A stretch of 64,000 nucleotides of DNA from Nemertoderma westbladi (taxonomy: Eukaryota > Animalia > Xenacoelomorpha), in contig JAUCBJ010008813.1 in NCBI GenBank assembly GCA_032718475.1, positions 1-64,000 on the forward strand, given 5' to 3'. The notes beneath the pieces were generated by a model. It saw only the letters and a program-made list of their open reading frames with translations, was not told the DNA's origin and did no database searches. Below, piece after piece: positions 1,088-62,532 of this stretch. Position numbers and translations under genes: made by a program. Numbering within the stretch: position 1 is the first letter of the stretch; the number at the start of each line of letters is the position of its first letter.

Positions 1088-2540
1088 AGGAGGATCGCAT
1101 CTCAAACACAAGAACCCCACTCCCACCAGTTTCTAGGAGGATCGCATCTCAAACACAAGAACCCCACTCCCACCGGTTTCTAGGAGGATCGCATCTCAAA
1201 CACAAGAACCCCACTCCCACCAGTTTCTAGGAGGATCGCATCTCAAACACAAGAACCCCACTCCAACTAGTTTCTAGGAGGATCGCATCTCAAACACAAG
1301 AACCCCACTCCCACTGGTTTCTAGGAGGATCGCATCTCAAACACAAGAACCCCACTCCCACTAGTTTCTAGGAGGATCGCATCTCAAACACAAGAACCCC
1401 ACTCCCACTAGTTTCTAGGAGGATCGCATCTCAAACACAAGAACCCCACTCCCACCGGTTTCTAGGAGGATCGCATCTCAAACACAAGAACCCCACTCCC
1501 ACCAGTTTCTAGGAGGATCGCATCTCAAACACAAGAACCCCACTCCCACTAGTTTCTAGGAGGATCGCATCTCAAACACAAGAACCCCACTCCCACTAGT
1601 TTCTAGGAGGATCGCATCTCAAACACAAGAACCCCACTCCCACTGGTTTCTAGGAGGATCGCATCTCAAACACAAGAACCCCACTCCCACTAGTTTCTAG
1701 GAGGATCGCATCTCAAACACAAGAACCCCACTCCCACTAGTTTCTAGGAGGATCGCATCTCAAACACAAGAACCCCACTCCCACTGGTTTCTAGGAGGAT
1801 CGCATCTCAAACACAAGAACCCCACTCCCACTAGTTTCTAGGAGGATCGCATCTCAAACACAAGAACCCCACTCCCACTAGTTTCTAGGAGGATCGCATC
1901 TCAAACACAAGAACCCCACTCCCACTAGTTTCTAGGAGGATCGCATCTCAAACACAAGAACCCCACTCCCACTAGTTTCTAGGAGGATCGCATCTCAAAC
2001 ACAAGAACCCCACTCCCACTAGTTTCTAGGAGGATCGCATCTCAAACACAAGAACCCCACTCCCACTAGTTTCTAGGAGGATCGCATCTCAAACACAAGA
2101 ACCCCACTCCCACTAGTTTCTAGGAGGATCGCATCTCAAACACAAGAACCCCACTCCCACCAGTTTCTAGGAGGATCGCATCTCAAACACAAGAACCCCA
2201 CTCCCACCAGTTTCTAGGAGGATCGCATCTCAAACACAAGAACCCCACTCCCACTAGTTTCTAGGAGGATCGCATCTCAAACACAAGAACCCCACTCCCA
2301 CTAGTTTCTAGGAGGATCGCATCTCAAACACAAGAACCCCGCTCCCACCGGTTTCTAGGAGGATCGCATCTCAAACACAAGAACCCCACTCCCACCAGTT
2401 TCTAGGAGGATCGCATCTCAAACACAAGAACCCCACTCCCACTAGTTTCTAGGAGGATCGCATCTCAAACCCAAGAACCCTGCTCCCTTCTGTTTCTAGA
2501 ACAATCACATCTCAAACACAAGAACCGCACCCCCACCAGT
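1088..2540. repeat. 47-bp minisatellite, ~31 copies, intronic
   Basis: Unit AGGAGGATCGCATCTCAAACACAAGAACCCCACTCCCACTAGTTTCT; successive copies start at 1088 and 1135; highly homogeneous. Confidence 0.97.
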
Positions 2541-2744
2541 TCTCCTTCAGTGGATGATGATAGCTATCCAGATTGGGATGAATACCATCTCAATTCTGGA
2601 ATCCACTGACTTCACCTCCGAGGGGCTATATCCTGGTGGCATAGAGCCCAGATTATATCACCTATGTTTAATTATTACGAACCTGCCTGAATGGGTGGGG
2701 TGAGTATTTTGCCCAATCTTTTTGTCTACACCATGTCCTGGAAT

Positions 2745-9206: not shown

Positions 9207-10868
9207 GTAAGTAACGGTAACTAAGAAACTAAAACTTTAAAAATATAAATATAATATTTTAACATATAATAGTACAAGGGCCAGCCAGCATAGGGGATAC
9301 TTTTTGGTAACCACCGGAACTTATATTTTTGGGAAGACCTAGCTTCTGGCCATTCATTTTGATATGATAACAAATCTGAATCGGTAGCTGACTAGGTGTT
9401 ATCACCGGTTGTCATGGAAATGGTAAAACAACAAACATGCTGTAGTATTCTAATAACTCAATATAAATTCATTGCATCTTTTGAAAAAGATAGCTACTGG
9501 TCCAACAATTCTAAATGTGACATAAAATTCTGGAATATAATTATTGTTACCATGGGAATGCTGCTATATGAAAACTGACATGTTTTAGAAAAATAGCTAC
9601 CATTCTAGAACCATTATTTTAAAAACAAATTACCACATTTTATTGAATATTAGTTTTGGAAAAGAGGGCTAAACCTGTTTTGTTATAATGGTGATATATG
9701 GTTCCAAAGATATACCCATGTTTGAATTATTTTTATTTTCCATCATTTTAATCTCATTCCACTCTGTTTCAAAATAATGACTTTAACAAATTTTATGTCA
9801 ATAAAAAACAATCAAGATGTGACTGCAAATCACTTTAAAATGACAAGTGACATCTAAATGGCATTTCAGGCCAATCACTTGTCCCGACGTCCTCTTCACC
9901 AACATCTCCTCCTCCTCTCCTTGTTCGGCGTCGTACCGGTGGCCCCACCGTCGCCGTTCCGGTGGGCCGTCCATCGCCCTCAGCCTGTGGCTGGCCGGCG
10001 ACTTCGGTACTCTGACCACCATCATGCGTCGACTCGTCCCTCCCTCGTGGGTGACGGCCGCCCTCCGCTTGGGGTACCGGATCGTTCCTCGTCAGCGAAT
10101 CCGGCGTCGCAGGTCGATACCGTCTCGTCGCGGCCTCGCGGATCATTTGGTTGGTGTCATCCGGGGTCCGCGGCGGCGTCCTCTGTCCCTCTGAATCTCG
10201 GGGCTCTCTATCGCTCATCTCTCTTTGCTATGATAACTGGCAGTCACAGTTTAGTGGTTGTTGCAATTGTCTTACTGTGACGGGATCAGGGATCCCGACT
10301 GGGTTAATGCTTGTACGCATCGCCCTAGGCTGATATCAGGTAACTTGGCCGAGGCCATTGGAGAAAAATGTTTTAGAGTTTGATGTTCCTTGGGTTCCAA
10401 CATATATATAATAATAATAGCACAGTTGATGACGGAATGACAAACCGGTAATAGTAGTAACTGAATGACAGCGTATAACAGCACTTAGTGACGACGGTAA
10501 GACAATGTTGCTGGTCTGCACTGAAACTGATAACTGGGTAACTGAATGATAAACCGGTAGCAAGGAGATAATATATGATATACCAATATTACTTTACTCC
10601 TACGCTACATTGGCCTGCTACCTAGTGGATGCTCTCCTTTGCCCTTATTGGCTAGTAACCCACTTCTCACCCTTCCTGTCTCTGGGAGTGTTTCCCCTCT
10701 GTTGCTAGCCCCTGCTAGCTGTGTCCCCTCTGAGGTGGTTTGACCTCTAACCTCCCCTTGTGTGTGGCTTTGGGGATTGTACTGTCCCCCGATGTTGGTT
10801 GTGATACGAGATTAATTATTGCTAATCCTGTATCTCCAACATATTGCTGAAAATGCCACCATCCCATT

Positions 10869-11533
10869 TTATGAGGGTAATGAGGCGGAATTGAATCCGC
10901 TTACAGATTTCGTTGTTCTGCTAGCACGCACACTAAGTCTTACCTTGGCCACAATAAGGCGGTGATCACTGGAGAAGGATCGTAGTGTAAATGCATTACA
11001 GTCTTGCATAGAGCTCCTGTATTTCCTACGAAACAGGATATGGTCTATCTGGGACTTGTGACCACTGGGTCCACTATGAGTCCATAGCTTTCCAGCTCGC
11101 TTCTTGAACTGGGTTCCAGCCGAAAACAATCCATTTCCAGAGATAAAATCCTGAAGATGGACGGAATTTCGGTTAACACTATTTCTATAGACCCAGGGCG
11201 ATGTAGGTGATTGATGCAGACTTGCATTAAAGTCTCCCAGGAATGTTAAGAATGCATGCCGATCCACTCAATCAGTAGCTGCTTGTAGATTCTGGTAGAA
11301 ATTTTCCACCTCCTCTACAGGGGCAACACTAGTTGGAGAGTAGCATACAATCAGAACCACCTTAAGAAACTTCTTAGCCAGTCTTCCAGAACATGAGAAG
11401 TGGCAATGGATGATGCGGTTAGAGATTTGGTCTATTTTGTCCAATGCTGCATGTGCAGTTGGATTCATCAATAGACCAATTCCACCATTGCCACTATCAT
11501 CAGCTGAAGAGAGGCCGAGTCGCCAACCGCCCC
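10869..11533 (-). mobile_element. LINE (RTE-like) AP-endonuclease fragment, truncated by the LTR element
   Basis: Motifs GIGLLM, CYSPT..A..EEVENFY, LGDFNA, SQIDHIL, SDHRLIVAKVRL; in-frame stop at 11268. Confidence 0.85.
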
Positions 11534-12661
11534 TGTTCGCGCTTTTAGACCTTTAGCAGTTTAACCTGCCAATTTTAGTTGTCTTCTTGTTTATAAATCG
11601 ACTTTAGCCTAGACCAATTATTTAGTGTACTGAAGTTACATCCTCCGAAGCCAGTCTGTGCGCGATCATTCACCCACAGTTAAGGGAGACTGGATTCGGG
11701 TGCTTTGAAGTTATTGCGGTGCAGACCTATATGTATTATTCGATTGATCGTTACTATATAATCTCTGACAAATATATTTGCTTTCGGGGAAATATTAACA
11801 GTTCCTTTAGGACGTGGCGCTTTAAGTATAAAATCAGAGTTATGACTTATACTAATCACAACTAGATGGCTACTGAGTTTCGTAAATAGCGCATTCTTTA
11901 GGAGATGCTTTATTATCTGTCAAACTACTTCACACGACTTCACACTACTTCACACTACTGCACACTGATCTGCCGACCGTCACTGAATTTGATCATATAT
12001 AAGGAAGATCGCAACTGACACGTGTAGGGATTATGAAATAGCATTTAATTCACACAAAAAACCACTATAATGTAAGTCGCAGTTGCTACCGGTAACCTGT
12101 TCCTCTCACCTTCAGTAATCAAGAAGATTGGGGGTTTTATGAGTATTCATCGGTATTATCCAAATATATCAGCAATATATATCCATATAACAACAATTAA
12201 TAACAGAAGTAAAATAATGCGGTGAACAATCAGTATGTGTTACAACAGTAATTAAGCAATGTTACGAGTCATGGGCGTAATGCATTGAATTGATAATAGA
12301 TTTACGTTCTTGTAATCAAAGCCATCAGATGTTTAGGCCAAAGTCTGAAACTTCCAAAACAGAAGCACAGAAGAATTCTAAGCCGGTTCTCTGGCTCAGA
12401 AAGGTAAACAAAGACCGTAATGCATTGCGCGGTTTTCCATAGGCCCCTGTTCAACATAAAGTGAAAATCGCTCTGATTGGCTGAGCAGAACAAAGAGGTT
12501 CCACGTCTACAGGAAATCAGCTGACAGATTTCGTCATCTGAGCTCCAATCTTTTAGAGTATTATGCGCATTGCGGCAAAAATGACTTGTTATGTCCGCTA
12601 AAGCACCTACACTGTGCATTGCGGGGAAAAATGACTTGTTATGTCCACAAAAGCTTTTACA
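11534..12661 (-). repeat. 3' LTR of the BEL/Pao element
   Basis: TGTTCGCGCTTTTAGACC...AAGCTTTTACA; preceded on the minus strand by purine-rich GGGAGCGG (PPT-like). Confidence 0.88.
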
Positions 12662-12764
12662 CCGCTCCCAGAAAATGGGATTTAATTCTATAAAATATAA
12701 AAAATCACAGTTTCTAAAATATAAAAATACTCTAAACAGTTAGTCCTTCTTTCGTGAACGGCGT

Positions 12765-13754
12765 TTACAAAGTTTTTTTGAGGCTAGCAAGAGTCCTTTT
12801 CTCTTTGGGGCGAGCCACTTTACTAGGAGGGCTATAACTCCTGGGTGAGGGGTGCAATACAATTGCATCGGAAGGTTTAGGGTTACGGTCGGTGTATCCG
12901 CCGGTCGAGGTACCCGGTTGATCGATATCAACCTCAGTGGAACGAGGTCGAACAACCTTCAGAGCGCGTTTCAAGACAGCAGCTCTTACTGGTCCCTGAC
13001 GAGTCGTCTGCACGAGAGCAGTAGGTGGACCATGAGTAGTGAGAAATTTCCTTGGTTTGATGGTTCTTTCTAACTCGCGTTCTTGGGCTCTATATTCATA
13101 GGGTCGTCTATGAACTTCCTGTAGTTCTGGATGCGAGTTGATGAACAAGTCACCATATTCCGGATCTTGACGGATGAAGTTGATCAAGTTATAGGAATTA
13201 AGGTCATTAGGATTAATGTTCCTGAGGTACTTGCGAACAAATTTGCTCGAAATATTCTCGCCAACACGCTTCATTAGTTTGTAGCTCGGTGTGCGAGATT
13301 TTTGCTCAACGGAAGCAAAGAGGTACGGGTGAAACGCATAAACTCCTTCATAGGCACGTCCAGGGTAGTATCGATGACGTGACTCGCAATGGAGATCCGC
13401 GTTAGCTTCCCAGGCTCGAATGTAGCGCAGGGCAACCATTTCGTCTACGCTTTCCAGATCTCGGTTGAAAGGGCAATCAAAACTTGCGTGTCCTTTAAAC
13501 TGGCAATGATGGCATTGAGTCATAAATTGAAGGCAGACTGCGAAGATTTGTAAGTTATTGAGTCTACAATACGCACAATAGATCTTCATTGTAGGTTGGT
13601 CTTGGAAGTAGGAGCAGGGTACGTTGGAGTCCACTGGGGTGAAGTGGTCTCGTGATGCGCATAATCGGCAACGTTTCCTAATTGGCATGCCGATAATCGT
13701 AGGCGGTGAGACATTGTGGACCTTGATACCATTCCAGAACATAGTTGTTGTCAC
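12765..13754 (-). CDS. BEL extra ORF, C-terminal part: Cys/His-rich protein with CCHC zinc knuckle and basic tail
   Basis: CRLCASRDH, CAYC and CHHCQFKGHASFDC (Cx2Cx4Hx4C); 329 open codons ending ~100 bp before the 3' LTR; overlaps the previous ORF by 4 nt. Confidence 0.6.
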   Translation of the reverse strand: MTTTMFWNGIKVHNVSPPTIIGMPIRKRCRLCASRDHFTPVDSNVPCSYFQDQPTMKIYCAYCRLNNLQIFAVCLQFMTQCHHCQFKGHASFDCPFNRDLESVDEMVALRYIRAWEANADLHCESRHRYYPGRAYEGVYAFHPYLFASVEQKSRTPSYKLMKRVGENISSKFVRKYLRNINPNDLNSYNLINFIRQDPEYGDLFINSHPELQEVHRRPYEYRAQERELERTIKPRKFLTTHGPPTALVQTTRQGPVRAAVLKRALKVVRPRSTEVDIDQPGTSTGGYTDRNPKPSDAIVLHPSPRSYSPPSKVARPKEKRTLASLKKTL

Positions 13755-15190
13755 TGCTTCTGGGCTCTGTGGGTTGAATCTCCTCGGACTCTAAGCAAAT
13801 TGGTTCGTCTTCCCAATTGCATAGCTGAGGTAGGCATAGCTGTCTCCTCAAGCGAACCCACTGTCTGAACTTCCATGATAGAATAACCCGTAGGGATTCG
13901 GGGTCTTTGTATGACAGAGGAATGTAAGTTCTGTATACAAACGTCCTTGAAAATGGCGAATCTCGCGCTGTCTAACTTCTCAGCAGCTGAGTCTCTTAGG
14001 CTGAGCTTAGTCAGAGCGCGGTCCTTGAACTGACTATCAACGTTACGGAACGGAGTCAGAAAGTGCCTAAAGCATTCGAATCGGATGAATTTATTATGTT
14101 CATCTAGCTTGGCGAGTTTGGTTCCAAGTAACAAGGGATGGGCGCGTATAGTACGACTGCACACATCGGCTAGCCAACCGGCAAGTGCGGCGTTCTCGAA
14201 GATAGTGTATATAGCTAATGAGGGACGAAGTGGAACACTCATGTAGCTATAAACGACGCCAGGTGCGGTCAATGGTCCGTCAAAGTATAATCGAGAATAA
14301 TGATCTCCATATACTTGTTGATAGTTGATAAGGTTTCCGACTTTGAAATTCCATCCGTATTCTTAAAAGGCAAGATGTCCGATGGAGGTTTGTTGTACTT
14401 TATTGATGCCGCTCGATGTATTGGCATACATAGTGCGGAAGAAACCTCGGCCTTCTGCCCAGAGAGCAATCAGCTGGGTGTCTACGAAAGGATATGGGAT
14501 ATTCTCCATGTTCCTGAAGTCGTTTTGGAGATCTCCATAAACAGCTGAGCCGATTTTAAGGATTCTTTCGTTAAACAATATCTCGAGCACTGGCTGGGGT
14601 AACATCGATCCATCTATACCCATGGCCGGTTTGCGCTCGGTATTGGTGACGTAGCGCTGCGCGAGTTCGAATTGTCCATGTTGGAGTTTCATTTGGATCT
14701 CGGTGAGAGTCTCAAAAGAATAATCGATCACGTCGGAACACGCTCGGGTAAACACATGGGTAGAACCAGCTAGTCCACGTATGTGTATCATCCGCATAGT
14801 TCCCAGTTCTCCAACCGGAATGCTACCTTCATTATCGTAAGTGACAACTCCATACATTTCGATAACGTTAAGAGTTTCGTTCCACTCTTTGGTGGCATTT
14901 TCTATGGTCATACCCACCGGATGCCATAAGGTGGCGCGTTCGCTAGTGTTAGGTAGATCGCTATACTTCAGATAATGTGTAGTATACGTCTCTACATCTC
15001 GATATCGCTGTATTCTCTCTTCCTCGAATAATACATCGAGATTCCAATGGACTAATCGAGTTTTAATAAATCCATTGAGATTATATGGGGGAATTATATC
15101 CTTTTCTATTCTAGAAACATTGTAAGGTTTTCTGAATGAGTTTACTTTCACTAACTGATCCAGATGTTTCTGTAGTTGTTCCCGCTCCAT
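13751..15190 (-). pseudogene. BEL extra ORF: DEDDy 3'-5' exonuclease-like (WRN/EXD/Mut-7/Egalitarian type) domain, one internal TAA at 14365-14363
   Basis: ExoI-like VVTYDNEG; LPQPVLEILFNERILKIGSAVYGDL (ExoII-like); FVDTQLIA; ExoIII-like YFDGPLTAPGVVYSYMS. ORFs 14363-15190 and 13751-14272 are in one frame, joined by 30 open codons. Confidence 0.7.
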
Positions 15191-15196
15191 ACGCTG

Positions 15197-18100
15197 TTAC
15201 TTTGAGGAGTCCCTAGATGTTTGTTGGATTAGGGAGGTGGTCGTGGGAAGAGTATCTTTCCTTCCATAGTTTCCGGATAGTTCTCTGTCTCTTTCCAGTA
15301 AACATAAACGACCAACTGGGCGATTGAGTTGTTGTGTTTCGAATACAATTCCAGGTTTCTTAAAGTTATGTCGCATGACGACGAGTTCTACCGATCGCAC
15401 TAAACTATCATCGGATATATGAGTCTCGATGATACGACCTGTCTGCCACCGCTTACGTGGAAGATCTGATTCCACAATAAGGACCATGTCTCCGGCGCTG
15501 ACGTTTTCTTGCTGCACAAACCACTTGGTTCGAAGTTGTAGCGTAGGCAGATAATGTTTTTCGAAATGGTCAGCGAAACGACGGGATAATAACTGCATGA
15601 GTTGCCAAGTTTGTCGGCAGTATTCGTCTCCGTCCGTGATTTCCGATTGTGGGAGCATGGCTACAGGTTTCTTTAGCAGGAAATGCGCGGGAGTTAGCGC
15701 TTCTAGGGAGTCGGGACTCGATGAGACTGGCATAAGCGGTATCTCATTAAGATAGGCGGCGATTTCTTCCATTAACGTCCGCAAAAGTTCGTCGGTGAGA
15801 TAAGCGCGGCACGGCACGGCACTATAAAGTGAAATGCGGTCTTCATGCTCCTGATTAATCTCTCCCAACTTCCTCCCCACCAAGGGGCGTCGGCGGCGTT
15901 GAAGGTCCAGCTAGACGCTGTTACCCTTAGCTGATCGTCCACCTGTCTTTGGTTCCAATCTTTGATGTAAGCCTTGATTTCATTGTTGGCATCAATGAAG
16001 ATCGTTCCTGACGACGACGACGAATGACGACGAGTTCTACCGATCGCACCAAACCATCATCCGAGATATGAGTCTCAATGATACGACCTGTCAGCCACTG
16101 CTTACGTGGAAGATCTAAGTAATCCCTAGGTAATTCTGCCTCTCGCTGTGTTAAAGGCCTACTGAATGCTTTCCTACAGGGTATGCAGTTCCTAAGAACT
16201 TGGTTCAGAGCTCTACGGGGTTTATGAAAATAATAGCGAGTTCGAATTTCGCTAAGAACTCGTTCTCTACCAGCATGGTAAAGCCTACTGTGAACATCTA
16301 CAATCATCTTGATTTGTATTTCAAGATTTCTAATGAGTATGGGAAATTTAGTGTCAAAGGACAATGGAGCATTAGTTAATCTCCCTCCGACACGTATTAA
16401 CCCATCTATCATCATGCTAGAGAAACGATCCCTTAAGCGCATCTGTGGATTTCTCAACAACAGGAAATACTTATCGGAATCTTCATAGCATTGTAGGAGT
16501 CTCAGTATCTGCTTATTGGTATCCTCATGCTCTTGGTAACTGATCTTCTCTGTCAGAAACCTATCCGACACTTTATAAGCGGGAAGGTCTTTAATAGCAT
16601 GGACCTTTTCGGATATGATTGGAGCAGTATCACTAGCTATCTTCGTCCTGGAATAGTGATGATGGAAACACCTCTTGAGATACACGACGGCCTTGCAAAG
16701 CCAATTCCAGGAGCTATAGTGATTTATTGCTCTCTGTAGGAGAGGGGAGAGTCCTTGCGAGACATCTGGTATTCCAGATTTCCAGTCTCTTTCTCTGATT
16801 TCTATAACAGATTTGTTCGTGGTGGGGGAGTTTAGATCCACAGCGTCGTCCCCAGAGATGTGTAGTAAAGACAGATCTATCACGGGTTTAAATAACTTTG
16901 ATTTACTCGTCCGGGTTTTAGGTTTGACTTTCTCCGCTCCCTTGGCTTGTCTAATCTCAGCCGTGGTGAGATGAGGAGGCCATTCATCCTCTTCTTTACT
17001 TAGGAAGGCGGGTCCACCTAACCAGTCTGGAGTATCTATCAGTTCTTGAGGAGTTGCTCCTCTAGAGGCGATGTCGAATTCCATCCGGAGTTTCAACCCT
17101 CAGGTAGGCTACTATACCTATTCCCATATCGCTGGCGTCTCCAAACACATGGAGTTGATAGGAATATGTGGGGAGAACGTGACCAAAATATGAAAGGGAA
17201 ATCTTAAAGTTCTCGATGGATGGTAGAGAATCTTCCCATTTCATCCACTTATTTTGTAGTTCTCCCTTAAGTGGATCATTCCACGAGTGGTTTTCGAGCC
17301 ACATTTGTTGCACTAAGCTCCGAGCAACTAATATAACTGGGCTAATAAATCCCAATGGATCAAAATAAGTGCTCAGGATACTTAGACAAATCCGTTTAGT
17401 TCTAACTGGATTATCTCGCTGTTTTAACTGGAAAAACAAGATATCTCTCTCCGTGTCCCATTTTAAGTCAAGTGTCTTGGTTTCCGGAAGATCGTCCTTG
17501 ATGAGGTCCAGATCTTTAACACCTCGGTCTTCTACCGGGATCGATTCCAGAAACTCACGGGAGTTACTAGTGAACTTGGTTAGCCGAAATCCACCATGTT
17601 GCAAGCACTCCACCGTTCTCTTGGCAACATCAATGGCTTCTTCCACCGATGGGAGTGACTTTAAATTGTCGTCCATGTATATATCCCGTTTGATGTTGTT
17701 GATAACCGCTTTAGAGAAGGCGTCTCTGTTGTCATCGGCAGTGGTACGCACTACCGAACAAGCGTTCGAGGGGCTCGAGATGATCCCGAAAGCCTGGATG
17801 GTCATCCAGTACTCCACCGGTTTTCGGTTGAGGTCTCCTTCAGGCCACCACAGAAATCATAGGCTGTCTCGATCCCTATCCAGCGCCTTGACTTGTAAGA
17901 ACATGCCTTCTATGTCCGAAGCGAATGCGATAGAATATTGCCGCAGTCTCAATAATATTCCCAACAAAGATTGGAGTAAGTTGGGTCCCGGCAACAGTTC
18001 TGAGTTCAGGGATTGACCCATGTAAAGGGCGGAGCCGTCAAACACTACCCGGACTTCGTTGGGTTTACCGGGTTTGGGAATGTAATGATGTGTTAGATAA

Positions 18101-18420
18101 TACGTTCTCTCCATTATGGGTTTTTCTTCCGGAACTCGCTCCGCGTATCCTTTATCGATAAATTTCTTCAGCTGGGTTTTATACATTTCCCTGGCTTGTA
18201 CGTTGGCCGTAAGACGCCGATGTAGTTGCGTGATTTTCTTTTCCGCTAAAGGTCGGTTATTTATAAAACTGGGTTCTCGCCGTCGGAACGGAAGACCAAT
18301 CTCATAGCGACCTTCGTCTTTCAGATAATGGGTAGTCGTTTCCTGAATCTGCTTGGCTCTCTCTTCCTCGATGGACAAGGCTTTGTCGTAGGAATTGGGC
18401 TCTACGGCTTCTTGAGTAAA
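15197..18420 (-). pseudogene. BEL/Pao pol (RT, RNase H/Peptidase_A17-like, integrase, DUF5641-like), frameshifted and partly deleted
   Basis: RVVFDGSA, SLNSELLPGPNL, SDIEGMFLQV, FGIISSP, IYMDD, FDPLGF, LHVFGDASD, GLIRVGGRL, H..LYHAG...CIPC, WWGGSWERLIRS, LTPAHFL, YLPTLQLRTKW. Confidence 0.93.
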
Positions 18421-18423
18421 GAA

Positions 18424-20686
18424 TCATACGGTGTGTTCATCACGGATTTTGTTATTGTATCGATCTATCACTTCGTTTAATTCGTCATTATAAGTAAATT
18501 GTCCACCATGTTGATTGATAAGATGGCATAAGTTGGCTTGGTTTAACCAAGTTTGGTTCTCGGTGAGGAGATCGATTGCGTTTTCCTCATCATATAATTG
18601 ATTGATATCGTCATTGTCTGAGGAGTATGGGGTTCCCTCAGTTGTGGTTTCTCCCTCACTGATTTCTTCTTCCCATTCACTCACCTGATGTATTCTTTCA
18701 TTAGGGAGTCTTTCCATTAGGGTTCTATGGGAAGGTCCAGTGAAGTACCAACCTACTCTCGTTCTTCCCGCATACGTCTGGAATGGTTGCGGTCGAGCAG
18801 GCCGTTTTTCTAATGTCTCCAGCGCTTCATGCGCATTTTGGCCGATTAATATCTGCACCCCTGGGTAATCGGTGTTGAATCTAGGTATATCATATTGCTG
18901 GGTAAAATGGTCTTCATCCCAGTTGTAAGGTTCCACTTGGCTAGTAGCAAAGTTCTTTATAGCAACCATTTTGACCAACCTTACACTATGTTCTCCTAGT
19001 TCATCCTGGGGAGTGGACAACACACCAACGTAGTAATCTGTGGCTACTGTGGATTTCCAAACCTGCATAATTCCGGAAAGGTTCAACTTAGTTCGGAACT
19101 TGGGTTGTCCAGCAAAGATGTCTTCGGCTAGTTCTTTGTCAATGAAGGTGCCTGTGCTGCCGGAGTCAAGGAGGGCGTTTACTATGAGGCTCTTCCCTAG
19201 CCCATGGACTCTCAATTGCACCACAGGGAATTCCCGGATTCTGACAGAGGAAGTTGGCGCTTTCCAAGATGGCTGTCGATCCGGAATAGTCAGCTGAGGA
19301 TCTTCATAGTCAGTTTCAGTCTCGTACGTAAGTGCTCGATGCACAGCGGTGTTGATCATGTAACAGGATTCATTTTCGTCGGAGAATTCGTCCGTGTAGA
19401 ATCCTTCCAACTCAGAACTGTGGTCAGTGTCGTTCACATCACTGAATTGGACATGTAGTTCGGGCTCACTTACCTGACTCATGCGGGTTCTGTCAAATTC
19501 GGTGTGCAGCAAGATATGATGTTTCGCGCCGCACTTAGCACACCTCGCGTCTGAGTAACAGGTCCGTCTTTGATGTCCTCGTCTAAGGCAATTACAACAC
19601 AACCGCTTATCCCACATGACATCACGTCTATCCTTTAGGGATTTCTTCAAGAATTCATCACACCCACTCAAGCGATGTGGCCCGTCGCACAATACACATT
19701 TGGGTTTGATGTTACTTACTTTAACATGTGCTGTGTTGTGCACACTTGTTCTTTCCTTGGGCTTTCTTCCATGAATTCTCTTAGGAGACGTAGGAGGAGT
19801 TGTTACCTGTTCTCTCCTGTGACTGGTTCGAGACTTAGATTTACTTACGTCTTTCCTAGTTTTATTGACATAATAAGATCTTTTGGTGTCTTTACCGCTG
19901 TTCTCCTCGTACGAGGTTTGGCTTTCGCCATCGTCTGTATAACAGACTGGTGTTACCTTTCTCCTAGAAACGGGTTTTTCACTCACCTTATTTTCCGGTG
20001 TCTTCTCTCTGGACTGCTTTAGGAGCTGTAATCTTACCTCTCCATTTAAGAATGACATGAGATCAGCCATGGTAGGGTCTCTTTGTTGCTGGTCCATCAT
20101 ATAGAGAACCTTTTTGTACCAGCGAGTACCTACTCCACCCTTTGATAAAGTAGATGCTACGGCTCCAACAACCATAGAACTCTGGTATTCTTGAGACTTA
20201 CCTAACCAATCTAGCTGTCTACAGATCTCCTGAATCTCATCGGAAAACTCTATAATCCCATTGCTAAGAAACTTTCGGGGTGCTACTAATTTCGCATATA
20301 AATACCTAGCTATGTTAGTCCTATTACCATACCTGATGTTTAGTGTATCCCAAACTTGTCTTAATCCGTCTGGATGTCCAATAAACTTTAACGCCATTAA
20401 CTTGGGAGGTCCTTCCAAGCACTCGATGAGGAATCGAAGTTTCTCTCTGTTGGATAGTACAGAGTTCTGTATTGTTATCTTTATAATATTCATTAAAAGG
20501 TAACCATTTCATCTCATTTCCATTGAACTTGACGACCTCTCCCACCTTTACCGCTTGACGGGCTTCGGTTCTAGCCATTTGACATGTAAAACTTTCTTGA
20601 GCCATCGTATTATTTAATATCGAGTTATCGGTATATAAATTTCTCGGATTATTACAATCTCTAAATAAACAATAAAAGTTACACAT
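18424..20686 (-). pseudogene. BEL/Pao gag-protease (frameshift near 20493)
   Basis: KFNGNEMKWLPF / EKLRFLIECLEG (DUF1759-like); CVLCDGPHRLSGC, CCNCLRRGHQRRTC, CAKCGAKHHILLH; aspartic protease motif ALLDSGSTGTFI. Confidence 0.92.
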
Positions 20687-21802
20687 ACAATTTTTAGGGT
20701 AATTTTACAAGAAATCTATGAACCAGCCTAACAAGGAGTTAGAATTTCTGGTTCTTACAAACTGACAGGAAACTACGGTATTTGAAAACAATAAAGTAGT
20801 AGTAAGTAAGTTGCGTTGTCCAGATAAGGAAATACCACCGTCTGACGACGTATAGTCTTAGCTCTATAAGTACTACGTTATGTACCCGGAGTGTCCTTAC
20901 CAAGAGGTTAATTACCAAAGCCAACCAGAGCTAACGTGCCTATTAACCATGTTACAACACAAATATACTGTCTACACCCTAAATTACTTTCAGAAAGCAC
21001 TGTACTCTAAACCCTAAATTAGGTACAAGTACTTATACAACAAATAACCAGCAGTTAAATATACTTGAACAGCCAAAAGAACCACGGTATCTGCTGGAGT
21101 GACCGGAGCACAAAATCAACAGTCTTTACCTACGCCAAGCAGCCCTGATGTAGTACCGAGGTTAATTTAACTATAACGGTATGTATAACAAGCACAATTA
21201 CTGTAGGAATAAACTTGGGGAGTTGGAGGTTGCGAATACTCGCATAAACTCTGAATAATAAATATTACGCTACCCATGCAGACTATTCAAATAAAACACA
21301 GACCAAATGCTGGCAGACTACTGTCAAGCCTAAATAAACTACAGTATATGCAGACTCCGAAATGGTTAGTTAGTAGGCGTTCTAACCGAGTAGTACGACT
21401 TACTTTCGGGGGGGATTTACCTTACAACACTGGATGCCCCCACCTTCCTAACTAGCACTTTATCGGACAGACACTCTACACACACTGCAATCGCCTCAGA
21501 CCTAACAACAGTTAGACAACAATCCGGCCTACAAATTATTTATACAATCTGAGCAGGCTTACACGCCTTCTGCTCAATATTACACTTACAGATAAATAAA
21601 ACTGACAGAAATAAGTAAAATCTCAATAAAAACCAGGGCTGCAGTCCCCGATTAAATATCAAGACCTACCGGTATATATTATCACAATCGAAATAATACT
21701 GCTGTACCTGTAAGTACCGGTTCGGGTGGTTGGACAGCTTACCGTCCGACCGGTACATTCGACTTTATTGCCTACGGTGCAATAAAGAATCAAATCTATT
21801 AT

Positions 21803-22913
21803 TGTTTGCGCTTTTAGACCTTTAGCAGTTTAACCTGCCAATTTTAGTTGTCCTCTTGTTTATAAATCGACTTTAGCCTATATCAATTACCTAGTGTACT
21901 GAAGTTACATCAGCCGAAGCCAGTCTGTGCGCGACCTTTCACCCACGGTTTTGGGAGACTGGATTCGGATTCCTTGAGAGTTATTGCAGTGTAGACCTAC
22001 TGTATTATTCGATTGATCGTTACTATATAATCTCTGACAAATATATTTACTTTCGGGGAAATATTAACAGTTCCTTTAGGACGTGGCGCTTTAAGTATAA
22101 AAACAGAGTTATGACTTATACTAATCACAACTAGATGGCCACAGAGTTTCGTAAATAGCGCATTCTTTAGGAGATGCTTTATTAACGTTCACACTGCTTC
22201 ACACTACTTCACACTACTTCACACTGATCTGCCGACCGTCACCGAATTTGATCATATATAAGGAGGATCGCAACTGACACATGTAGGGATTATGAAATAG
22301 CATTTAATTCACACAAAAACCACTATAATTTGAGTCGCAGTTGCTACCGGTAAACCTGTTCCTCTTACCTTCAGTAATCAAGAAGATTGGGGGTTTTATG
22401 ATTATTTATCGGTATTCTCCAAATATAACAGCAATATCCATTAATATAACAACAATTAATAACAGAAGTAAAATAATGCGGTGATTTAGTAATATGCAGT
22501 CAGTTAAGTAAATGAGAAATGAATTGTAGAGTTGAGAGTGGAGTCAGTAGGATAATAGATTTACGTTCTTATAATCAAGGCCATCTGATGTTTAGGCCAA
22601 AGTCTGAAACTTCTACACAGAAGTACAGAAGATTCCGAGCCGGTTCTGGTGCTCAGAAAAATAGTAAACAAAGACCGTAATGCATTGCGCGAGTTTCCGT
22701 AGGCCTCTGTTAGACATAAAGGGAAAAAATGCTCTGATTGGCTGAATGAGGCAGAACAAAGAAAAATTCCACGTCCACAAAGAATCAGCTGATAGATGTC
22801 GTCACACCAGCTCCAATTCCTTCCCGTCGCGTAGTTGGATAAATTTAGGGCTATTTTAGAGTATTCTGCGCATTGCGGAAAAATGACTTGTTATGTCCGC
22901 AAAAGCTTTTACA
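21803..22913 (-). repeat. 5' LTR of the BEL/Pao element
   Basis: TGTTTGCGCTTTTAGACC...AAGCTTTTACA, a direct repeat of 11534-12661. Confidence 0.88.
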
Positions 22914-25792: not shown

Positions 25793-26675
25793 CCAAGTAG
25801 GATTAAATAAATAGGATTTAGTATTCAAAAATGTCATTATCGAAGGAATCATCTTTGCAGAAATCATCTAGGAACAATTATGATAAATATATATAAATTG
25901 AAGTGAATATAGTAAAAGAACCAACCTCTCTTTTGTGGCAGGTGTCAAGTCATTTGTTTTGTGTCATATCTGAGTCATCTTCAATTGCATCTGTAGTGGT
26001 AGTCATTGTAACCTGTGAAGGAGTGTTGTCTGAAATGCCATTTAGATGTCACTTGTCATTTTAAAGTGATTTGTAGTCACATCTTGATTTTTTTTATTGG
26101 CATAAATATTTGTTATAAAGTCATTATTTTGAAACAGGGTGGAATAAGAGATTAAATTGATGAAAAATAAAAATATTGCAAACAAGGGTATATCTTTGGA
26201 ACCATATATCACTGTTATAACAAAACAAATTTAGCTCTCAGTATACCAAAATTTTCCAAAACTAATATTCAATAAAATGTGGCAATTTGTTTTTAAAATA
26301 ATGGTATTGTTCTAGAATGGTAGCTATTTTTCTAAAACATGTCAATTTTCATTTAGCAGCGTTCCCATGGTAACAATAATTATATTCCAGAATTTTATGT
26401 CACATTTAGAATTGTTAGACCAGTATCTATCTTTTTCAAATAATGCAATGAATTTATATTGAGTTATTAGAATACTACAGCATGTTTGTTGTTTTACCAT
26501 TTCCAAGACAACCGGTGATAACACCAAGTCAGCTACCGATTCAGATTTGTTATCATATCTAAATGAATGGCCAGAAGCTAGGTCTTCCCAAAAATATCAG
26601 TTCCGGGTGGTTACCAAAAAGTATCCCCTATGCTGGCTGGCCCATGGACTATTATATATAATACAATTATTTAAC

Positions 26676-46267: not shown

Positions 46268-46440
46268 GCAGCAACTTGGTCTAGTGGTGAAATTCCTGGG
46301 CTTCCAATCTGGAAGCCCTGGTTCGATTCCTATAGATTGTGACAACACTTTTTGGGCACAGCGCTTTATATGCTGCCGCCTAGCCAAACCCTGGCTTTTA
46401 TCCTTGGATGGTCGGTAAATGGGAACCAAGGCAACTTGTG
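46268..46440 (+). mobile_element. tRNA-derived SINE head (Pol III A and B boxes)
   Basis: A box TGGTCTAGTGG (46277-46287), B box GGTTCGATTCC (46320-46330), Gly(TCC)-like CTTCCAA between them; runs directly into the satellite. Confidence 0.7.
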
Positions 46441-49400
46441 AAACAGAGTGGAAGGGTTTACTGTGGAAGATCACCCATGGTGGTGAACAGGCATTCCTTT
46501 AGGAAACAGAGTGGAAGGGTTTACTGTGGAAGATCACCCATGGTGGTGAACAGGAATTCCTTTAGGAAACAGAGTGGAAGGGTTTACTGTGGAAGATCAC
46601 CCATGGTGGTGAACAGGCATTCCTTTAGGAAACAGAGTGGAAGGGTTTACTGTGGAAGATCACCCATGGTGGTGAACAGGCATTCCTTTAGGAAACAGAG
46701 TGGAAGGGTTTACTGTGGAAGATCACCAATGGTGGTGAACAGACATTCCTTTAGGAAACAGAGTGGAAGGGTTTACTGTGGAAGATCAGCCATGGTGGTG
46801 AACAGGAATTCCTTTAGGAAACAGAGTGGAAGGGTTTACTGTGGAAGATCACCCATGGTGGTGAACAGGAATTCCTTTAGGAAACAGAGTGGAAGGGTTT
46901 ACTGTGGAAGATCGCCAATGGTGGTGAACAGACATTCCTTTAGGAAACAGAGTGGAAGGGTTTACTGTGGAAGATCACCCATGGTGGTGAACAGACATTC
47001 CTTTAGGAAACAGAGTGGAAGGGTTTACTGTGGAAGATCACCCATGGTGGTGAACAGGAATTCCTTTAGGAAACAGAGTGGAAGGGTTTACTGTGGAAGA
47101 TCGCCAATGGTGGTGAACAGACATTCCTTTAGGAAACAGAGTGGAAGGGTTTACTGTGGAAGATCAGCCATGGTGGTGAACAGGAATTCCTTTAGGAAAC
47201 AGAGTGGAAGGGTTTACTGTGGAAGATCACCCATGGTGGTGAACAGGAATTCCTTTAGAAAACAGAGTGGAAGGGTTTACTGTGGAAGATCACCCATGGT
47301 GGTGAACAGGCATTCCTTTAGGAAACAGAGTGGAAGGGTTTATTGTGGAAGATCACCCATGGTGGTGAACAGGCATTCCTTTAGGAACCAGAGTGGAAGG
47401 GTTTACTGTGGAAGATCACCCATGGTGGTGAACAGGAATTCCTTTAGGAAACAGAGTGGAAGGGTTTACTGTGGAAGAACACCCATGGTATTGAACAGGC
47501 ATTCCTTTAGGAAACAGAGTGGAAGGGTTTACTGTGGAAGATCACCCATGGTGGTGAACAGGCATTCCTTTAGGAAACAGAGTGGAAGGGTTTACTGTGG
47601 AAGATCACCCATGGTATTGAACAGGCATTCCTTTAGGAAACAGAGTGTAAGGGTTTACTGTGGAATATCACCCATGGTAGTGAACAGGCATTCCTTTAGG
47701 AAACAGAGTGGAAGGGTTTACTGTGGAAGATCGCCCATCATGGAGGTGAACAGGCATTCCTTTAGGAACCAGAGTGGACGGGTTTACTGTGGAAGATACC
47801 CCATGGTGGCGAACAGGCATTCCTTTAGGAAACAGAGTGGAAGGGTTTACTGTGGAAGATCAACCATGGTGGTGAACAGGGATTCCTTTAGGAAACAGAG
47901 TGGAATGGTTTACTGTGGAAGATCACCCATGGTGGTGAACAGGTATTCCTTTAGGAAACAGAGTGGAAGGGTTTACTGTGGAAGATCACTCATGGTGGTG
48001 AACAGGCATTCCTTTAGGAAACAGAGTGGAAGGGTTTACTGTGGAAGATCGCCCATCATGGAGGTGAACAGGCATTCCTTTAGGAAACAGAGTGGAAGGG
48101 TTTACTGTGGAAGATCGCCCATCATGGAGGTGAACAGGCATTCCTTTAGGAAACAGAGTGGAAGGGTTTACTGTGGAAGATCAACCATGGTGGTGAACAG
48201 GCATTCCTTTAGGAAACAGAGTGGAAGGGTTTACTGTGGAAGATCGCCCATCATGGAGGTGAACAGGCATTCCTTTAGGAAACAGAGTGGAAGGGTTTAC
48301 TGTGGAACATCACCCATGGCGGTGAACAGGCATTCCTTTAGGAAACAGAGTGGAAGGGTTTACTGTGGAAGATCGCCCATCATGGAGGTGAACAGGCATT
48401 CCTTTAGGAACCAGAGTGGACGGGTTTACTGTGGAAGATACCCCATGGTGGCGAACAGGCATTCCTTTAGGAAACAGAGTGGAAGGGTTTACTGTGGAAG
48501 ATCAACCATGGTGGTGAACAGGCATTCCTTTAGGAAACAGAGTGGAAGGGTTTACTGTGGAAGATCGCCCATCATGGAGGTGAACAGGCATTCCTTTAGG
48601 AAACAGAGTGGAAGGGTTTACTGTGGAAGATCAACCATGGTGGTGAACAGGCATTCCTTTAGGAAACAGAGTGGAAGGGTTTACTGTGGAAGATCGCCCA
48701 TCATGGAGGTGAACAGGCATTCCTTTAGGAAACAGAGTGGAAGGGTTTACTGTGGAAGATCACCCATGGCGGTGAACAGGCATTCCTTTAAGAAACAGAG
48801 TGGAAGGGTTTACTGTGGAAGATCAACCATGGTGGTGAACAAGCATTCCTTTAGGAAACAGAGTGGAAGGGTTTACTGTGGAAGATCGCCCATCATGGAG
48901 GTGAACAGGCATTCCTTTAGGAAACAGAGTGGAAGGGTTTACTGTGGAAGATCACCCATGGCGGTGAACAGGCATTCCTTTAGGAAACAGAGTGGAAGGG
49001 TTTACTGTGGAAGATCACCCATGGTGGTAAACAGGCATTCCTTTAGGAAACATAGTGGAAGGGTTTACTGTGGAAGATCACCCATGGTGGTGAACAGGCA
49101 TTCCTTTAGAAAAAGAGTGGGAGGGTTTACTGTGGAAGATCACCCATGGCGATGAACAGGCATTCTTAGGAAACAGAGTGGTAGGGTTTACTGTGGAAGA
49201 TCACCCATGGCGGTTAACAGGCATTCCTTTAGGAAACAGAGTGGAAGGGTTTACTGTGGAAGATCACCCATGGTGGTGAACAGGCATTCCTTTAGGAAAA
49301 AGAGTGGGAGGGTTTACTGTGGAAGATCACCCATGGCGGTGAACAGGCATTCTTAGGAAACAGAGTGGTAGGGTTTACTGTGGAAGATCACCCATGGCGG

Positions 49401-52400
49401 TTAACAGGCATTCCTTTAGGAAACAGAGTGGAAGGGTTTACTGTGGAAGATCACCCATGGTGGTGAACAGGCATTCCTTTAGGAAAAAGAGTGGGAGGGT
49501 TTACTGTGGAAGATCACCCATGGCGGTGAACAGGCATTCTTAGGAGACATAGTGGAAGAGTTTACTGTGGAAGATCACCCATGGCGGTGAACAGGCATTC
49601 CTTTAGGAAAAAGAGTGGGAGGGTTTACTGTGGAAGATCATCCATGGCGGTGAACAGGCATTCTTAGGAAACAGAGTGGTAGGGTTTACTGTGGAAGATC
49701 ACCCATGGCGGTTAACAGGCATTCCTTTAGGAAACAGAGTGGAAGGGTTTACTGTGGAAGATCACCCATGGTGGTGAACAGGCATTCCTTTAGGAAACAG
49801 AGTGGAAGAGTTTACTGTGGAAGATCAAAGATCACCCGTGGTGGTGAACAGGCATTCCTTTAGGAAACAGAGTGGAAGGGTTTACTGTGGAAGATCACCC
49901 ATGGTGGTGAACAGGCATTCCTTTAGGAAACAGAGTTGAAGGGTTTACTGTGGAAGGTCACCCATGGGGGTTAACAGGCATTCCTTTAGGAAACAGAGTT
50001 GAAGGGTTTACTGTGGAAGATCACCCATGTTGGTGAACAGACATTCCTTTAGGAAACAGAGTGGAAGGGTTTACTGTGGAAGATCAAAGATTACCCGTGG
50101 TGGTGAACAGGCATTCCTTTAGGAAACAGAATGGAAGGGTTTACTGTGGAAGATCACCCATGTTGGTGAACAGGCATTCCTTTAGGAAACAGAGTGGAAG
50201 GGTTTACTGTGGAAGAAAGATCACCCATGGCGGTGAACAGACATTCCTTTAGGAAACAGAGTGGAAGGGTTTACTGTGGAAGATCACCCATGGTGGTGAA
50301 CAGGCATTCCTTTAGGAAACAGAGTGGAAGGGTTTACTGTGGAAGAAAGATCACCCATGGTGGTGAACAGACATTCCTTTAGGAAGCAGAGTGGAAGGGT
50401 TACTGTGGAAGAAAGATCACCCATGGTGGTGAACAGACATTCCTTTAGGAAACAGAGTGGAAGGGTTTACTGTGGAAGATCACCCATGGTGGTGAACAGG
50501 CATTCCTTTAGGAAACTGAGTGGAAGGGTTTAATGTGGAAGATCATCCATGGTGGTGAACAGGCATTCCTTTAGGAAACAGAGTTGAAGGGTTAACTGTG
50601 GAAGATCACCCATGGTGGTTAACAGGCATTCCTTTAGGAAACAGAGTGGAAGGGTTTAATGTGGAAGATCATCCATGGTGGTGAACAGGCATTCCTTTAG
50701 GAAACTGAGTGGAAGGGTTTAATGTGGAAGATCATCCATGGTGGTGAACAGGCATTCCTTAAGGAAACAGAGTTGAAGGGTTTACTGTGGAAGATCACCC
50801 ATGGTGGTTAACAGGCATTCCTTTAGGAAACAGAGTTGAAGGGTTTACTGTGGAAGATCACGCATGTTGGTGAACAGGCATCCCTTTAGGAAACAGAGTG
50901 GAAGGGTTTACTGTGGAAGAAAGATCACCCATGGTGGTGAACAGACATTCCTTTAGGAAACGAGTGGAAGGGTTTACTGTGGAAGAAAGATCACCCATGG
51001 CGGTGAACAGGCATTCCTTTAGGAAACAGAGTGGAAGGGTTTACTGTGGAAGAAAGATCACCCATGGCGGTGAACAGACATTCCTTTAGGAAACAGAGTG
51101 GAAGGGTTTACTGTGGAAGAAAGATCACCCATGGCGGTGAACAGACATTCCTTTAGGAAACAGAGTGGAAGGGTTTACTGTGGAAGATCACCCATGGTGG
51201 TGAACAGGCATTCCTTTATGAAACAGAGTGGAAGGGGGAAGGGTTTACTGTGGAAGATCACCCATGGTGTTGAACAGGCATTCCTTTAGGAAACAGAGTG
51301 GAAGGGGGAAGGGTTTACTGTGGAAGATCACCCATGGTGGTGAACAGGCATTCCTTTATGAAACAGAGTGGAAGGGGGAAGGGTTTACTGTGGAAGATCA
51401 CCCATGGTGGTGAACAGGCATTCCTTTAGGAAACAGAGTGGAAGGGTTTACTGTGGAAGAAAGATCACCCATGGCGGTGAACAGACATTCCTTTAGGAAA
51501 CAGAGTGGAAGGGTTTACTGTGGAAGATCACCCATGGTGGTGAACAGGCATTCCTTTATGAAACAGAGTGGAAGGGGGAAGGGTTTACTGTGGAAGATCA
51601 CCCATGGTGTTGAACAGGCATTCCTTTAACAAACAGAGTGGAAGGGTTTACTGTGGAAGATCACCCATGGTAGTGAACAGGCATTCCTTTAGGAAACAGA
51701 GTGTAAGGGATTACTGTGGAATATCACCCATGGTAGTGAACGGGCATTCCTTTACGAAACAGAGTGGAGGGGTTTGCTGTGGAAGATCACCCATGGTGGT
51801 GAACAGGCATTCCTATAGGAAACAGAGTTGAAGGGTTTACTGCGGAAGATCACCCATGGTGGTGAACATGCATTCCTTTGGGAAACAGAGTGGAAGGGTT
51901 TACTGTGGAAGATCACCCATGGTAGTGAACAGGCATTCCTTTAGGAAACAGAGTGTAAGGGTTTACTGTGGAAGATCACCCATGGTAGTGAACAGGCATT
52001 CCTTTATGAAACAGAGTGGAGGGGTTTGCTGTGGAAGATCACCCATGGTGGTGAACAGGCATTCCTATAGGAAACAGAGTTGAAGGGTTTACTGCGGAAG
52101 ATCACCCATGGTGGTGAACATGCATTCCTTTGGGAAACATAGTGGAAGGGTTTACTGTGGAAGATCACCCATGGTAGTGAACAGGCATTCCTTTAGGAAA
52201 CAGAGTGGAGGGGTTTACTGTGGAAGATCACCTATGGTGGTTAACAGGCATTCCTTTAGGAAACAGAGTGGAGGGGTTTACTGTGGAAGATCACCTATGG
52301 TGGTTAACAGGCATTCCTATAGGAAACAGAGTGGAGGGGTTTACTGTGGAAGAACACCCATGGTGGTGAACAGGCATTCCTTTAGGAAACTGAGTGGAAG

Positions 52401-62420: not shown

Positions 62421-62532
62421 CCTTGGCCTAACGAGCCTAAAAGATTCATCCATTCATTATGTAAATATTATTAATTAAAACATTTTTTAACACATTATTT
62501 TTCATGTTTTCGTTATTAATTGATTGATTTAG

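What the first reader, a model, noticed from the sequence alone, without database searches (positions are those of the whole stretch)
12765..15199. BEL/Pao retrotransposon carrying a DEDDy 3'-5' exonuclease-like module in the env position
Seen: ~2.4 kb of coding sequence between integrase/DUF5641 and the 3' LTR, with VVTYDNEG, LPQPVLEILFNERILKIGSAVYGDL and FVDTQLIA, and no obvious signal peptide or transmembrane segment. Known: these resemble the ExoI (DxE), LP..L..ILxD..ILKVG....D (ExoII) and DTQ/DL motifs of the DnaQ-fold DEDDy family (WRN exonuclease, EXD1, EXD2, Mut-7/Nibbler, Egalitarian), several of which act in piRNA/siRNA processing or RNA transport. Extra ORFs of BEL/Pao elements are usually described as env-like. 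Inference: a captured nuclease-fold domain that could counter or mimic small-RNA defence, process cDNA ends, proofread RT, or localise element RNA. I do not know this architecture as described, but could not search for it.
Basis: partly seen in the sequence, partly recalled or inferred. Interest (0 to 1): 0.85.

Follow-up and report, generated by a model that had tools for sequence, protein, structure and literature searches.

The report
BEL/Pao retrotransposon with RNase D-like gene
A broken copy of a multi-copy BEL/Pao jumping gene carries, where an envelope gene would sit, an extra gene that other copies keep under selection and that likely encodes an RNA-trimming enzyme of the RNase D type with RNA-binding modules, a cargo described in print for rotifer Gypsy-like elements.

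Summary
Observation largely confirmed. A decayed BEL/Pao element (LTRs 11534-12661 and 21803-22913, minus strand) has two non-membrane frames between pol and the 3' LTR: ORF A (15190-13751, one in-frame stop that other copies lack) and ORF B (13790-12765, a CCHC knuckle). The centre of ORF A matches DEDDy 3'-5' exonucleases: RNase D is the top NCBIfam hit (E 0.0016) and RNase D and WRN-type profiles beat all shuffles (0 of 3000, 0 of 5000). ExoI and ExoIII are weak on their own; the ExoIII candidate has Glu for Asp. An HRDC-like motif follows at RNase D spacing, which points to RNase D/Rrp6 rather than EXD/Mut-7/Egalitarian. Sites that vary among other copies fall on third codon positions (26 of 31), so the family kept the gene. 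No homologue was found among 1.84 billion proteins. The concept is not new: DEDDy ORF3s are described in rotifer Juno/Vesta elements (PMC5408684). A BEL/Pao carrier was not found in eight literature searches. Activity and target are untested. New variant of a known kind.

The parts
21803..22913 (-). 5' LTR (1111 bp, TG...CA)
   Evidence: 89.5% identical to the 3' LTR over 1086 aligned columns, K2P 0.113
18424..20508 (-). gag (DUF1759, zinc knuckles) and protease frame
   Evidence: translation; Pfam DUF1759 E 6e-7, Asp_protease_2 E 0.014
17062..18423 (-). reverse transcriptase (YMDD) and Pao-type RNase H region, in two pieces
   Evidence: Peptidase_A17 E 3e-25
15927..17099 (-). RNase H end and integrase zinc-binding domain; integrase core disrupted, with a misplaced second copy of a DUF5641 stretch (16021-16116)
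   Evidence: Integrase_H2C2 E 7e-8; 96-bp repeat D5
15197..15910 (-). integrase C-terminal part with DUF5641, ending in TAA six bases before the ORF A ATG, same frame
   Evidence: DUF5641 E 2e-20; sequence
14366..15190 (-). ORF A, 5' piece (275 aa): unassigned N-terminal ~105 aa, then DEDDy exonuclease-like core
14825..14848 (-). ExoI candidate (D119, E121)
   Evidence: position and order fit; ranks second in block scans, not significant alone
14456..14602 (-). ExoII-containing core (D220) and DTQ strand, the statistically supported part
   Evidence: TIGR01388 E 0.0016; 0 of 5000 and 0 of 3000 shuffles; block p 0.001
14363..14365 (-). in-frame stop, private to this copy
   Evidence: at 14365 all laid depth in 4 of 4 runs reads another letter
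14195..14245 (-). ExoIII candidate (residues 316-332; Y328, E332 where the family has Asp)
   Evidence: pattern in 36 of 100000 shuffles and 27 of 30 RNase D proteins, but chosen after seeing the sequence; PSSM not significant
13922..14002 (-). HRDC-like motif (residues 397-423)
   Evidence: 10.8 bits, 0 of 3000 shuffles; best of 628 window frames but next is 8.4; no Pfam hit
12765..13790 (-). ORF B (341 codons): Cys/His-rich N-terminal third, basic C-terminal half; other frame than ORF A
13473..13514 (-). CX2CX4HX4C zinc knuckle in ORF B
   Evidence: Pfam zf-CCHC_3 E 1.5e-4, 22 bits, under the 27-bit cut-off
12662..12669 (-). short purine-rich tract before the 3' LTR (weak PPT candidate)
   Evidence: sequence
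11534..12661 (-). 3' LTR (1128 bp, TG...CA); no target-site duplication found

Best explanation
The 2.4 kb is an accessory third gene region of a multi-copy BEL/Pao family, broken in this copy and showing the codon pattern of purifying selection among other copies, that likely encodes an RNase D/Rrp6-type 3'-5' exoribonuclease with a predicted HRDC-like domain and a zinc knuckle, and would most plausibly help the element by trimming or degrading the host's silencing RNAs. Shown: element anatomy, motifs, profile match of the nuclease core, third-position bias, copy-private stop. Inferred: two-metal catalysis by D119/E121/D220/Y328/E332; RNA binding by the HRDC-like part and the knuckle; expression from a separate spliced or re-initiated message (the ATG lies six bases after the pol stop, in frame). 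Untested: activity, substrate, and whether ORF A and ORF B are one protein in unbroken copies. My odds: DEDDy fold 0.9; family-maintained gene 0.9; RNase D/Rrp6-type 0.65; catalytically active 0.55; the counter-silencing target is a guess by analogy.
For: Fold: ESM Atlas best hits are PF01612 clusters (0.90; 10 of the 10 best family hits share family or clan); RNase D TIGR01388 is the top NCBIfam hit, E 0.0016; WRN-type profile 12.4 bits, 0 of 5000 shuffles; RNase D profile 15.7 bits, 0 of 3000; hhalign probability 62-66%, E 5-7e-5; blocks fall in the right order. RNase D type: HRDC profile 10.8 bits, 0 of 3000; ExoIII Tyr to HRDC Arg is 71 residues here and 72-75 in 24 of 26 parsed RNase D proteins of 30. 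Selection: 19 of 24 segregating sites are third positions and 18 synonymous, against 4 of 15 for sites where only this copy differs (Fisher p 0.002); 26 of 31 with the rows. Precedent for the cargo: PMC5408684; for exonuclease plus CCHC acting on small RNAs: TbRND trims guide RNAs (PMC7797062, abstract and passages).
Against: No Pfam, PHROGs or PDB sequence hit. Only about 50 residues carry the significant match; N-half profile is matched by 403 of 2000 shuffles and the C-half gives no score; ExoI and ExoIII block scores are not significant (p 0.07-0.5). Two insertions of about 42-44 residues are needed. ExoIII has Glu for Asp. An HRDC profile from RNase D alone gives 0.2 bits (225 of 3000 shuffles), hhalign gives the HRDC 4-5%, and satellite-derived frames reach 8.4 bits. 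The Atlas hit shares only 134 of 256 features. Nothing here bears on the substrate; PMC5408684 found no clear link between DEDDy ORF3 and copy number.
Confidence: 0.4

Rival explanations
1. Active exonuclease that works on the element's own nucleic acids: trims the 3' end of genomic RNA or primer tRNA, or cDNA ends, or proofreads RT.
For: Same sequence evidence as the best explanation. RNase D and Rrp6 trim structured RNA ends (PMC5408684, PMC7797062, passages); PMC5408684 proposes this role for rotifer ORF3s. The CCHC knuckle resembles nucleocapsid-type knuckles.
Against: BEL/Pao elements are generally described with gag and pol only (PMC3118150, PMC11599104, passages), so the core cycle does not need it. 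LTR or copy divergence gives no sign either way.
Confidence: 0.25
2. Catalytically dead or weakened DEDDy fold kept as an RNA-binding or decoy protein (as Maelstrom, EXD1 or Egalitarian are used).
For: ExoIII candidate has Glu for Asp and scores poorly; ExoI is weak; large insertions; PMC5408684 notes inactive DEDD derivatives in piRNA pathways. Unchecked AI notes report dead DEDDh cargo in other elements.
Against: Acidic residues are present at all four metal positions and the Tyr is present; none of these five codons shows an amino-acid change among the 40 of 133 rows shown, and E332 varies synonymously.
Confidence: 0.2
3. The region is a real conserved accessory gene, but the exonuclease likeness is a chance 50-residue match and the protein has another fold.
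For: No library hit above a curated cut-off; single-sequence fold failed; flanking motifs individually weak.
Against: A language-model search, an unbiased NCBIfam scan and two separately built profiles point at the same family and place; four motifs and an HRDC-like motif lie in the expected order.
Confidence: 0.08
4. A one-off host fragment or nested repeat that rides along without selection.
For: No shown contig spans both pol and ORF A (table 8 lists 32 of about 126,100 pieces); this copy is broken.
Against: 30 of 30 bins are covered in 4 of 4 runs; dozens of variant contigs per site; 26 of 31 segregating sites at third positions; no indel row at 25% share in 14100-14880; intron-free, same strand, starts six bases after pol and ends about 100 bases before the 3' LTR.
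Confidence: 0.05

Closest known systems
DEDDy-type ORF3 of bdelloid rotifer LTR retrotransposons Juno and Vesta, also in Athena/Terminon elements (PMC5408684; main text parts 1-3 of 5 and legends read)
   Same: RNase D-like DEDDy exonuclease in the env slot after pol, no transmembrane or coiled-coil region, function untested.
   Different: Those carriers are Juno and Vesta lineages; the paper never names BEL or Pao as whole words. Its motif variant is DEED; here the candidate set reads D-E-D-E. It describes no HRDC domain or separate knuckle frame in the text read. Homology to those ORFs was not tested (sequences not in hand).
RNase D (E. coli, 1YT3; TIGR01388) and Rrp6/EXOSC10
   Same: Best profile match of the core; exonuclease followed by an HRDC-like motif at similar spacing.
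   Different: 17.8 bits against a cut-off of 299; two insertions of about 42-44 residues; Glu at ExoIII; extra N-terminal region; zinc-knuckle frame downstream. Rrp6 sequences were not compared directly.
Trypanosoma brucei TbRND (7C42; PMC7797062, abstract and passages)
   Same: DEDDy exonuclease with C-terminal CCHC fingers that aid RNA binding; trims small guide RNAs.
   Different: TbRND has no HRDC, is one polypeptide and is a cellular enzyme; here fusion of nuclease and knuckle is not shown.
WRN exonuclease, EXD1, EXD2, Mut-7/Nibbler, Egalitarian
   Same: Share the LP..L..IL....ILK.G....D stretch.
   Different: WRN-type profile scores slightly lower than RNase D; these domains are not directly followed by HRDC (recalled).
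Env genes of BEL/Pao elements (phlebovirus-like in Atlas/Cer; herpes gB-like in Tas; PMC9094657, passages)
   Same: Position between integrase and the 3' LTR.
   Different: No hydrophobic anchor, no env-family hit, four Cys in ORF A.

Membership tests
BEL/Pao LTR retrotransposons (Belpaoviridae) | Paired LTRs with TG...CA ends | tested here: met
   11534-12661 and 21803-22913, 89.5% identical without gaps
BEL/Pao LTR retrotransposons (Belpaoviridae) | gag-PR-RT-RH-IN order with Pao-type domains | tested here: met
   DUF1759, protease, YMDD RT, Peptidase_A17, H2C2 integrase, DUF5641 in that order
BEL/Pao LTR retrotransposons (Belpaoviridae) | Placement in an RT tree; clade | not tested
   no reference BEL/Pao RT set was fetched
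BEL/Pao LTR retrotransposons (Belpaoviridae) | Target-site duplication | tested here: not met
   flanks do not match; may reflect age or recombination between copies
DEDDy 3'-5' exonucleases (PF01612) | Pfam score above the curated cut-off | tested here: not met
   no PF01612 hit at E 1 or E 10
DEDDy 3'-5' exonucleases (PF01612) | ExoII Asp in its helix-strand-helix context | tested here: met
   D220; 0 of 5000 and 0 of 3000 shuffles, block p 0.001
DEDDy 3'-5' exonucleases (PF01612) | ExoI DxE on the first strand | tested here: inconclusive
   D119/E121 present, right distance to the next strand block (p 0.023), but rank second and p 0.07-0.13
DEDDy 3'-5' exonucleases (PF01612) | ExoIII YxxxD | tested here: inconclusive
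   candidate Y328-x3-E332: Glu, not Asp; pattern rare in shuffles but post hoc; PSSM not significant
DEDDy 3'-5' exonucleases (PF01612) | DnaQ fold | tested here: inconclusive
   single-sequence model failed; guided model is circular and reaches only Z 5.8
DEDDy 3'-5' exonucleases (PF01612) | Metal-dependent 3'-5' nuclease activity | not testable with these tools
   needs an assay
RNase D / Rrp6 group | HRDC domain after the nuclease | tested here: inconclusive
   27-residue match, 0 of 3000 shuffles with a RecQ-type profile, 225 of 3000 with an RNase D-only profile, spacing fits
RNase D / Rrp6 group | TIGR01388 above cut-off | tested here: not met
   17.8 of 298.95 bits
Rotifer Juno/Vesta/Athena DEDDy ORF3 group | Sequence homology to those ORFs | not tested
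   their sequences were not among the proteins fetched; phmmer found no relative at all
Retroelement env | Transmembrane anchor and fusion-protein homology | tested here: not met

The most novel reading that the evidence does not exclude
A BEL/Pao lineage encodes its own miniature RNA-surveillance module, an Rrp6-like exonuclease-HRDC joined to Air2-like zinc knuckles, which it uses to disarm small-RNA or exosome defence; the same cassette type would have been gained across LTR superfamilies (Gypsy-like and BEL/Pao), making nuclease cargo a general third strategy beside env.
Probability: 0.2. Interest if true: 0.8.

Novelty: new variant of a known kind. Interest (0 to 1): 0.5.

Why it matters
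Extra genes of BEL/Pao elements are described as env. A non-env nuclease kept under purifying selection shows that the enzyme cargo reported in rotifer elements also occurs in a second LTR superfamily, in a form so divergent that Pfam and a search of 1.84 billion proteins miss it. That suggests such cargo is under-annotated, and offers a multi-copy family in which to ask an open question from PMC5408684: what these nucleases do for the element.

Tried and rejected
No whole genome is held, so no copy count, intact-copy search, full dN/dS or tree. Relatives of ORF A: none in the search for homologous proteins (186 and 3749 candidates, near lengths only), none among 1.84 billion representatives, none in viral contigs or phages, no look-alike AI notes. 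PDB sequence searches gave only chance hits. PHROGs: nothing better than E 0.04. Single-sequence AlphaFold: pLDDT 29, unusable. Guided AlphaFold of residues 107-275 with 71 bacterial WRN-type rows: pLDDT 64; Foldseek best RNase D E 0.064, VIA best Z 5.8; circular and below the tool's own noise level, so not counted as evidence; it covers neither ExoIII nor HRDC, whose structure stays open. Plain MAFFT split the DxE motif. The 'longer' search with the WRN-type profile returned 168 proteins, 120 listed, none with retroelement Pfam domains. No RNA holder listed: says nothing on expression. An alternative ExoIII at residues 302-318 has the spacing but no acidic residue; hhalign's placement at 281-295 lacks one at Tyr+4: both set aside. 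ESM Atlas for ORF B gave zf-CCHC/AIR2-like clusters at 0.77-0.85 with low recognition: lead only. Whether the pol stop is shared by other copies could not be read (40 of 2403 rows shown). Env reading rejected.
Full report
Element. The finding lies in an LTR retrotransposon on the minus strand. The LTRs are 21803-22913 and 11534-12661, both TG...CA, 89.5% identical over 1086 aligned columns with 67 gap columns, K2P 0.113; the flanks show no target-site duplication. Pfam finds DUF1759, a weak aspartyl protease, Peptidase_A17 (Pao), Integrase_H2C2 and DUF5641 in gag-PR-RT-RH-IN order. That this set marks BEL/Pao is partly recalled; no RT tree was built. The copy is dead: pol is in several pieces and the integrase core is disrupted, with a 96-bp DUF5641 stretch repeated at 16021-16116.

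The extra region. Six bases after the pol stop, in the same frame, ORF A starts (15190-13751, 479 codons, one TAA at 14365-14363). ORF B (13790-12765) overlaps its end in another frame and carries one CX2CX4HX4C knuckle, further Cys pairs and a basic tail. No piece has a transmembrane-like stretch.

Is it a family feature? No genome is held, so I laid contigs of four public runs of one organism label (three studies; X1 and X2 are one sample and may be the window's source). All 30 bins of the element are covered in 4 of 4 runs, with dozens of variant contigs per site. At 14365 all laid depth reads another letter in every run, so the stop belongs to this copy alone. One search showed 40 of 133 difference rows for 14100-14880; I dropped the row at the stop and split the other 39 at a share of 0.98 (my threshold). 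Of 24 sites that vary among other copies, 19 are third positions and 18 synonymous; of 15 sites where essentially only this copy differs, 4 and 4 (Fisher p 0.002). Seven more varying sites in the extra region (two in ORF A, five in ORF B) are all third positions, giving 26 of 31. This is the pattern of purifying selection in the family with neutral decay in this copy. Limits: the tool chose the rows shown, and no shown contig spans pol and ORF A, so linkage in other copies is inferred. A small indel near 13.8 kb is seen in 53%, 23%, 34% and 1% of laid depth, so the A/B junction differs among copies; whether A and B are one gene in unbroken copies is open.

Is it a DEDDy exonuclease? Standard searches are blank: Pfam, PDB sequences, 1.84 billion representatives, two homologue searches. 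Two unbiased searches give a lead: the ESM Atlas ranks PF01612 clusters first (0.90, but only 134 of 256 shared features) and NCBIfam ranks RNase D first (E 0.0016, residues 199-245). I then built profiles. One from 78 bacterial WRN-type proteins (of 120 loci; validated against WRN, Nibbler and EXD2 structures) scores the 5' piece at 12.4 bits, above 5000 of 5000 shuffles and best of 628 window frames. One from 30 RNase D proteins gives 15.7 bits, 0 of 3000 shuffles. Block scans place a strand pair (p 0.023), ExoII (p 0.001) and the DTQ strand (p 0.001) in the right order; ExoI (D119, E121) ranks only second, p 0.07-0.13. Half-profiles for the N- and C-terminal parts fail. The ExoIII candidate is Y328-x3-E332: its pattern occurs in 27 of 30 RNase D proteins and 36 of 100,000 shuffles, but I chose it after seeing the sequence and the PSSM test is not significant. 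Two insertions of about 42-44 residues are needed. AlphaFold did not help: alone it failed, and guided by outside exonucleases it is circular and weak. I put the fold at about 0.9 and activity at about 0.55.

Which type? Unchecked AI notes on Gypsy elements with exonuclease-HRDC-CCHC ORF3s prompted an HRDC test. A profile of 32 HRDC domains matches residues 397-423 at 10.8 bits, 0 of 3000 shuffles; a mixed profile 9.5 bits, 0 of 3000; an RNase D-only profile 0.2 bits, 225 of 3000. It is the best of 628 window frames, but satellite frames reach 8.4 and hhalign gives 4-5%. The distance from the ExoIII Tyr to the HRDC Arg is 71 here and 72-75 in 24 of 26 parsed RNase D proteins.

How it likely works. 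The gene would be expressed apart from pol or by passing the stop (inferred; PMC5408684 states that ORF3s are typically made from spliced messages). The product would bind single-stranded RNA through the HRDC-like part and the knuckle and trim 3' ends at a two-metal site (inferred from RNase D, Rrp6 and TbRND; PMC7797062). I commit to counter-silencing (0.4) because the gene is dispensable for the core cycle, very divergent and of a kind gained repeatedly; this is inference, with no data on the substrate. Rivals are processing of the element's own RNA or cDNA (0.25), a dead RNA-binding fold (0.2), a chance likeness (0.08) and passive cargo (0.05).

What is known. PMC5408684 (main text and legends read, supplement not) describes RNase D-like DEDDy ORF3s in rotifer Juno and Vesta LTR elements and in Athena/Terminons, activity untested; PMC6431247 and PMC5718144 repeat this (passages). 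BEL/Pao extra genes in what I saw are env: PMC9094657, PMC11599104 (passages). 'Exonuclease' has 0 occurrences in the main text of the BEL/Pao survey PMC3118150 and of PMC13524379. Eight searches listed no paper on a BEL/Pao element with such a gene, judged from listings and the passages named. Subscription journals, Repbase, Dfam, GyDB and all supplements were not seen and could hold one.

Verdict. Real, family-maintained, probably an RNase D-type nuclease cargo; the idea is in print for other LTR lineages, the BEL/Pao carrier and the HRDC-like plus knuckle layout appear not to be. New variant of a known kind, interest 0.5.

Noticed in passing
window 46440-62424: About 250 copies of a 63-bp unit. 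The unit holds a pyrimidine-rich TTTAG followed by G, like a splice acceptor, as in satellites that AI notes report elsewhere in this genome. Its 923-codon open frame gives Pfam hits with no passing stretch, probably repeat artefacts.
   Followed up: partly
window 1088-2541 and 63282-64000: Further tandem arrays of 47 bp (31 copies) and about 36 bp (20 copies).
   Followed up: no
window 10869-11267, minus strand: Endonuclease fragment of a non-LTR retrotransposon just past the 3' LTR (Exo_endo_phos E 2e-4); the BEL/Pao copy seems to sit near a LINE's 5' end.
   Followed up: partly
window 15338-16927: Contigs in 4 of 4 runs join across about 1.6 kb of the integrase region: an internally deleted subfamily that may keep the extra gene.
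   Followed up: no
window 9251-9869 and 26030-26670: Two copies of a roughly 600-bp repeat in opposite orientation, 88-98% alike, on either side of the element.
   Followed up: no
window 20600-21802: A 1.2-kb leader follows the 5' LTR and does not begin with the TGG expected of a primer-binding site (expectation recalled).
   Followed up: no
window 12774: Many contigs of other copies leave the window's sequence at the very end of ORF B (60, 73 and 5 records in X1, X2, X4), so this copy's ORF B end may also be broken.
   Followed up: no
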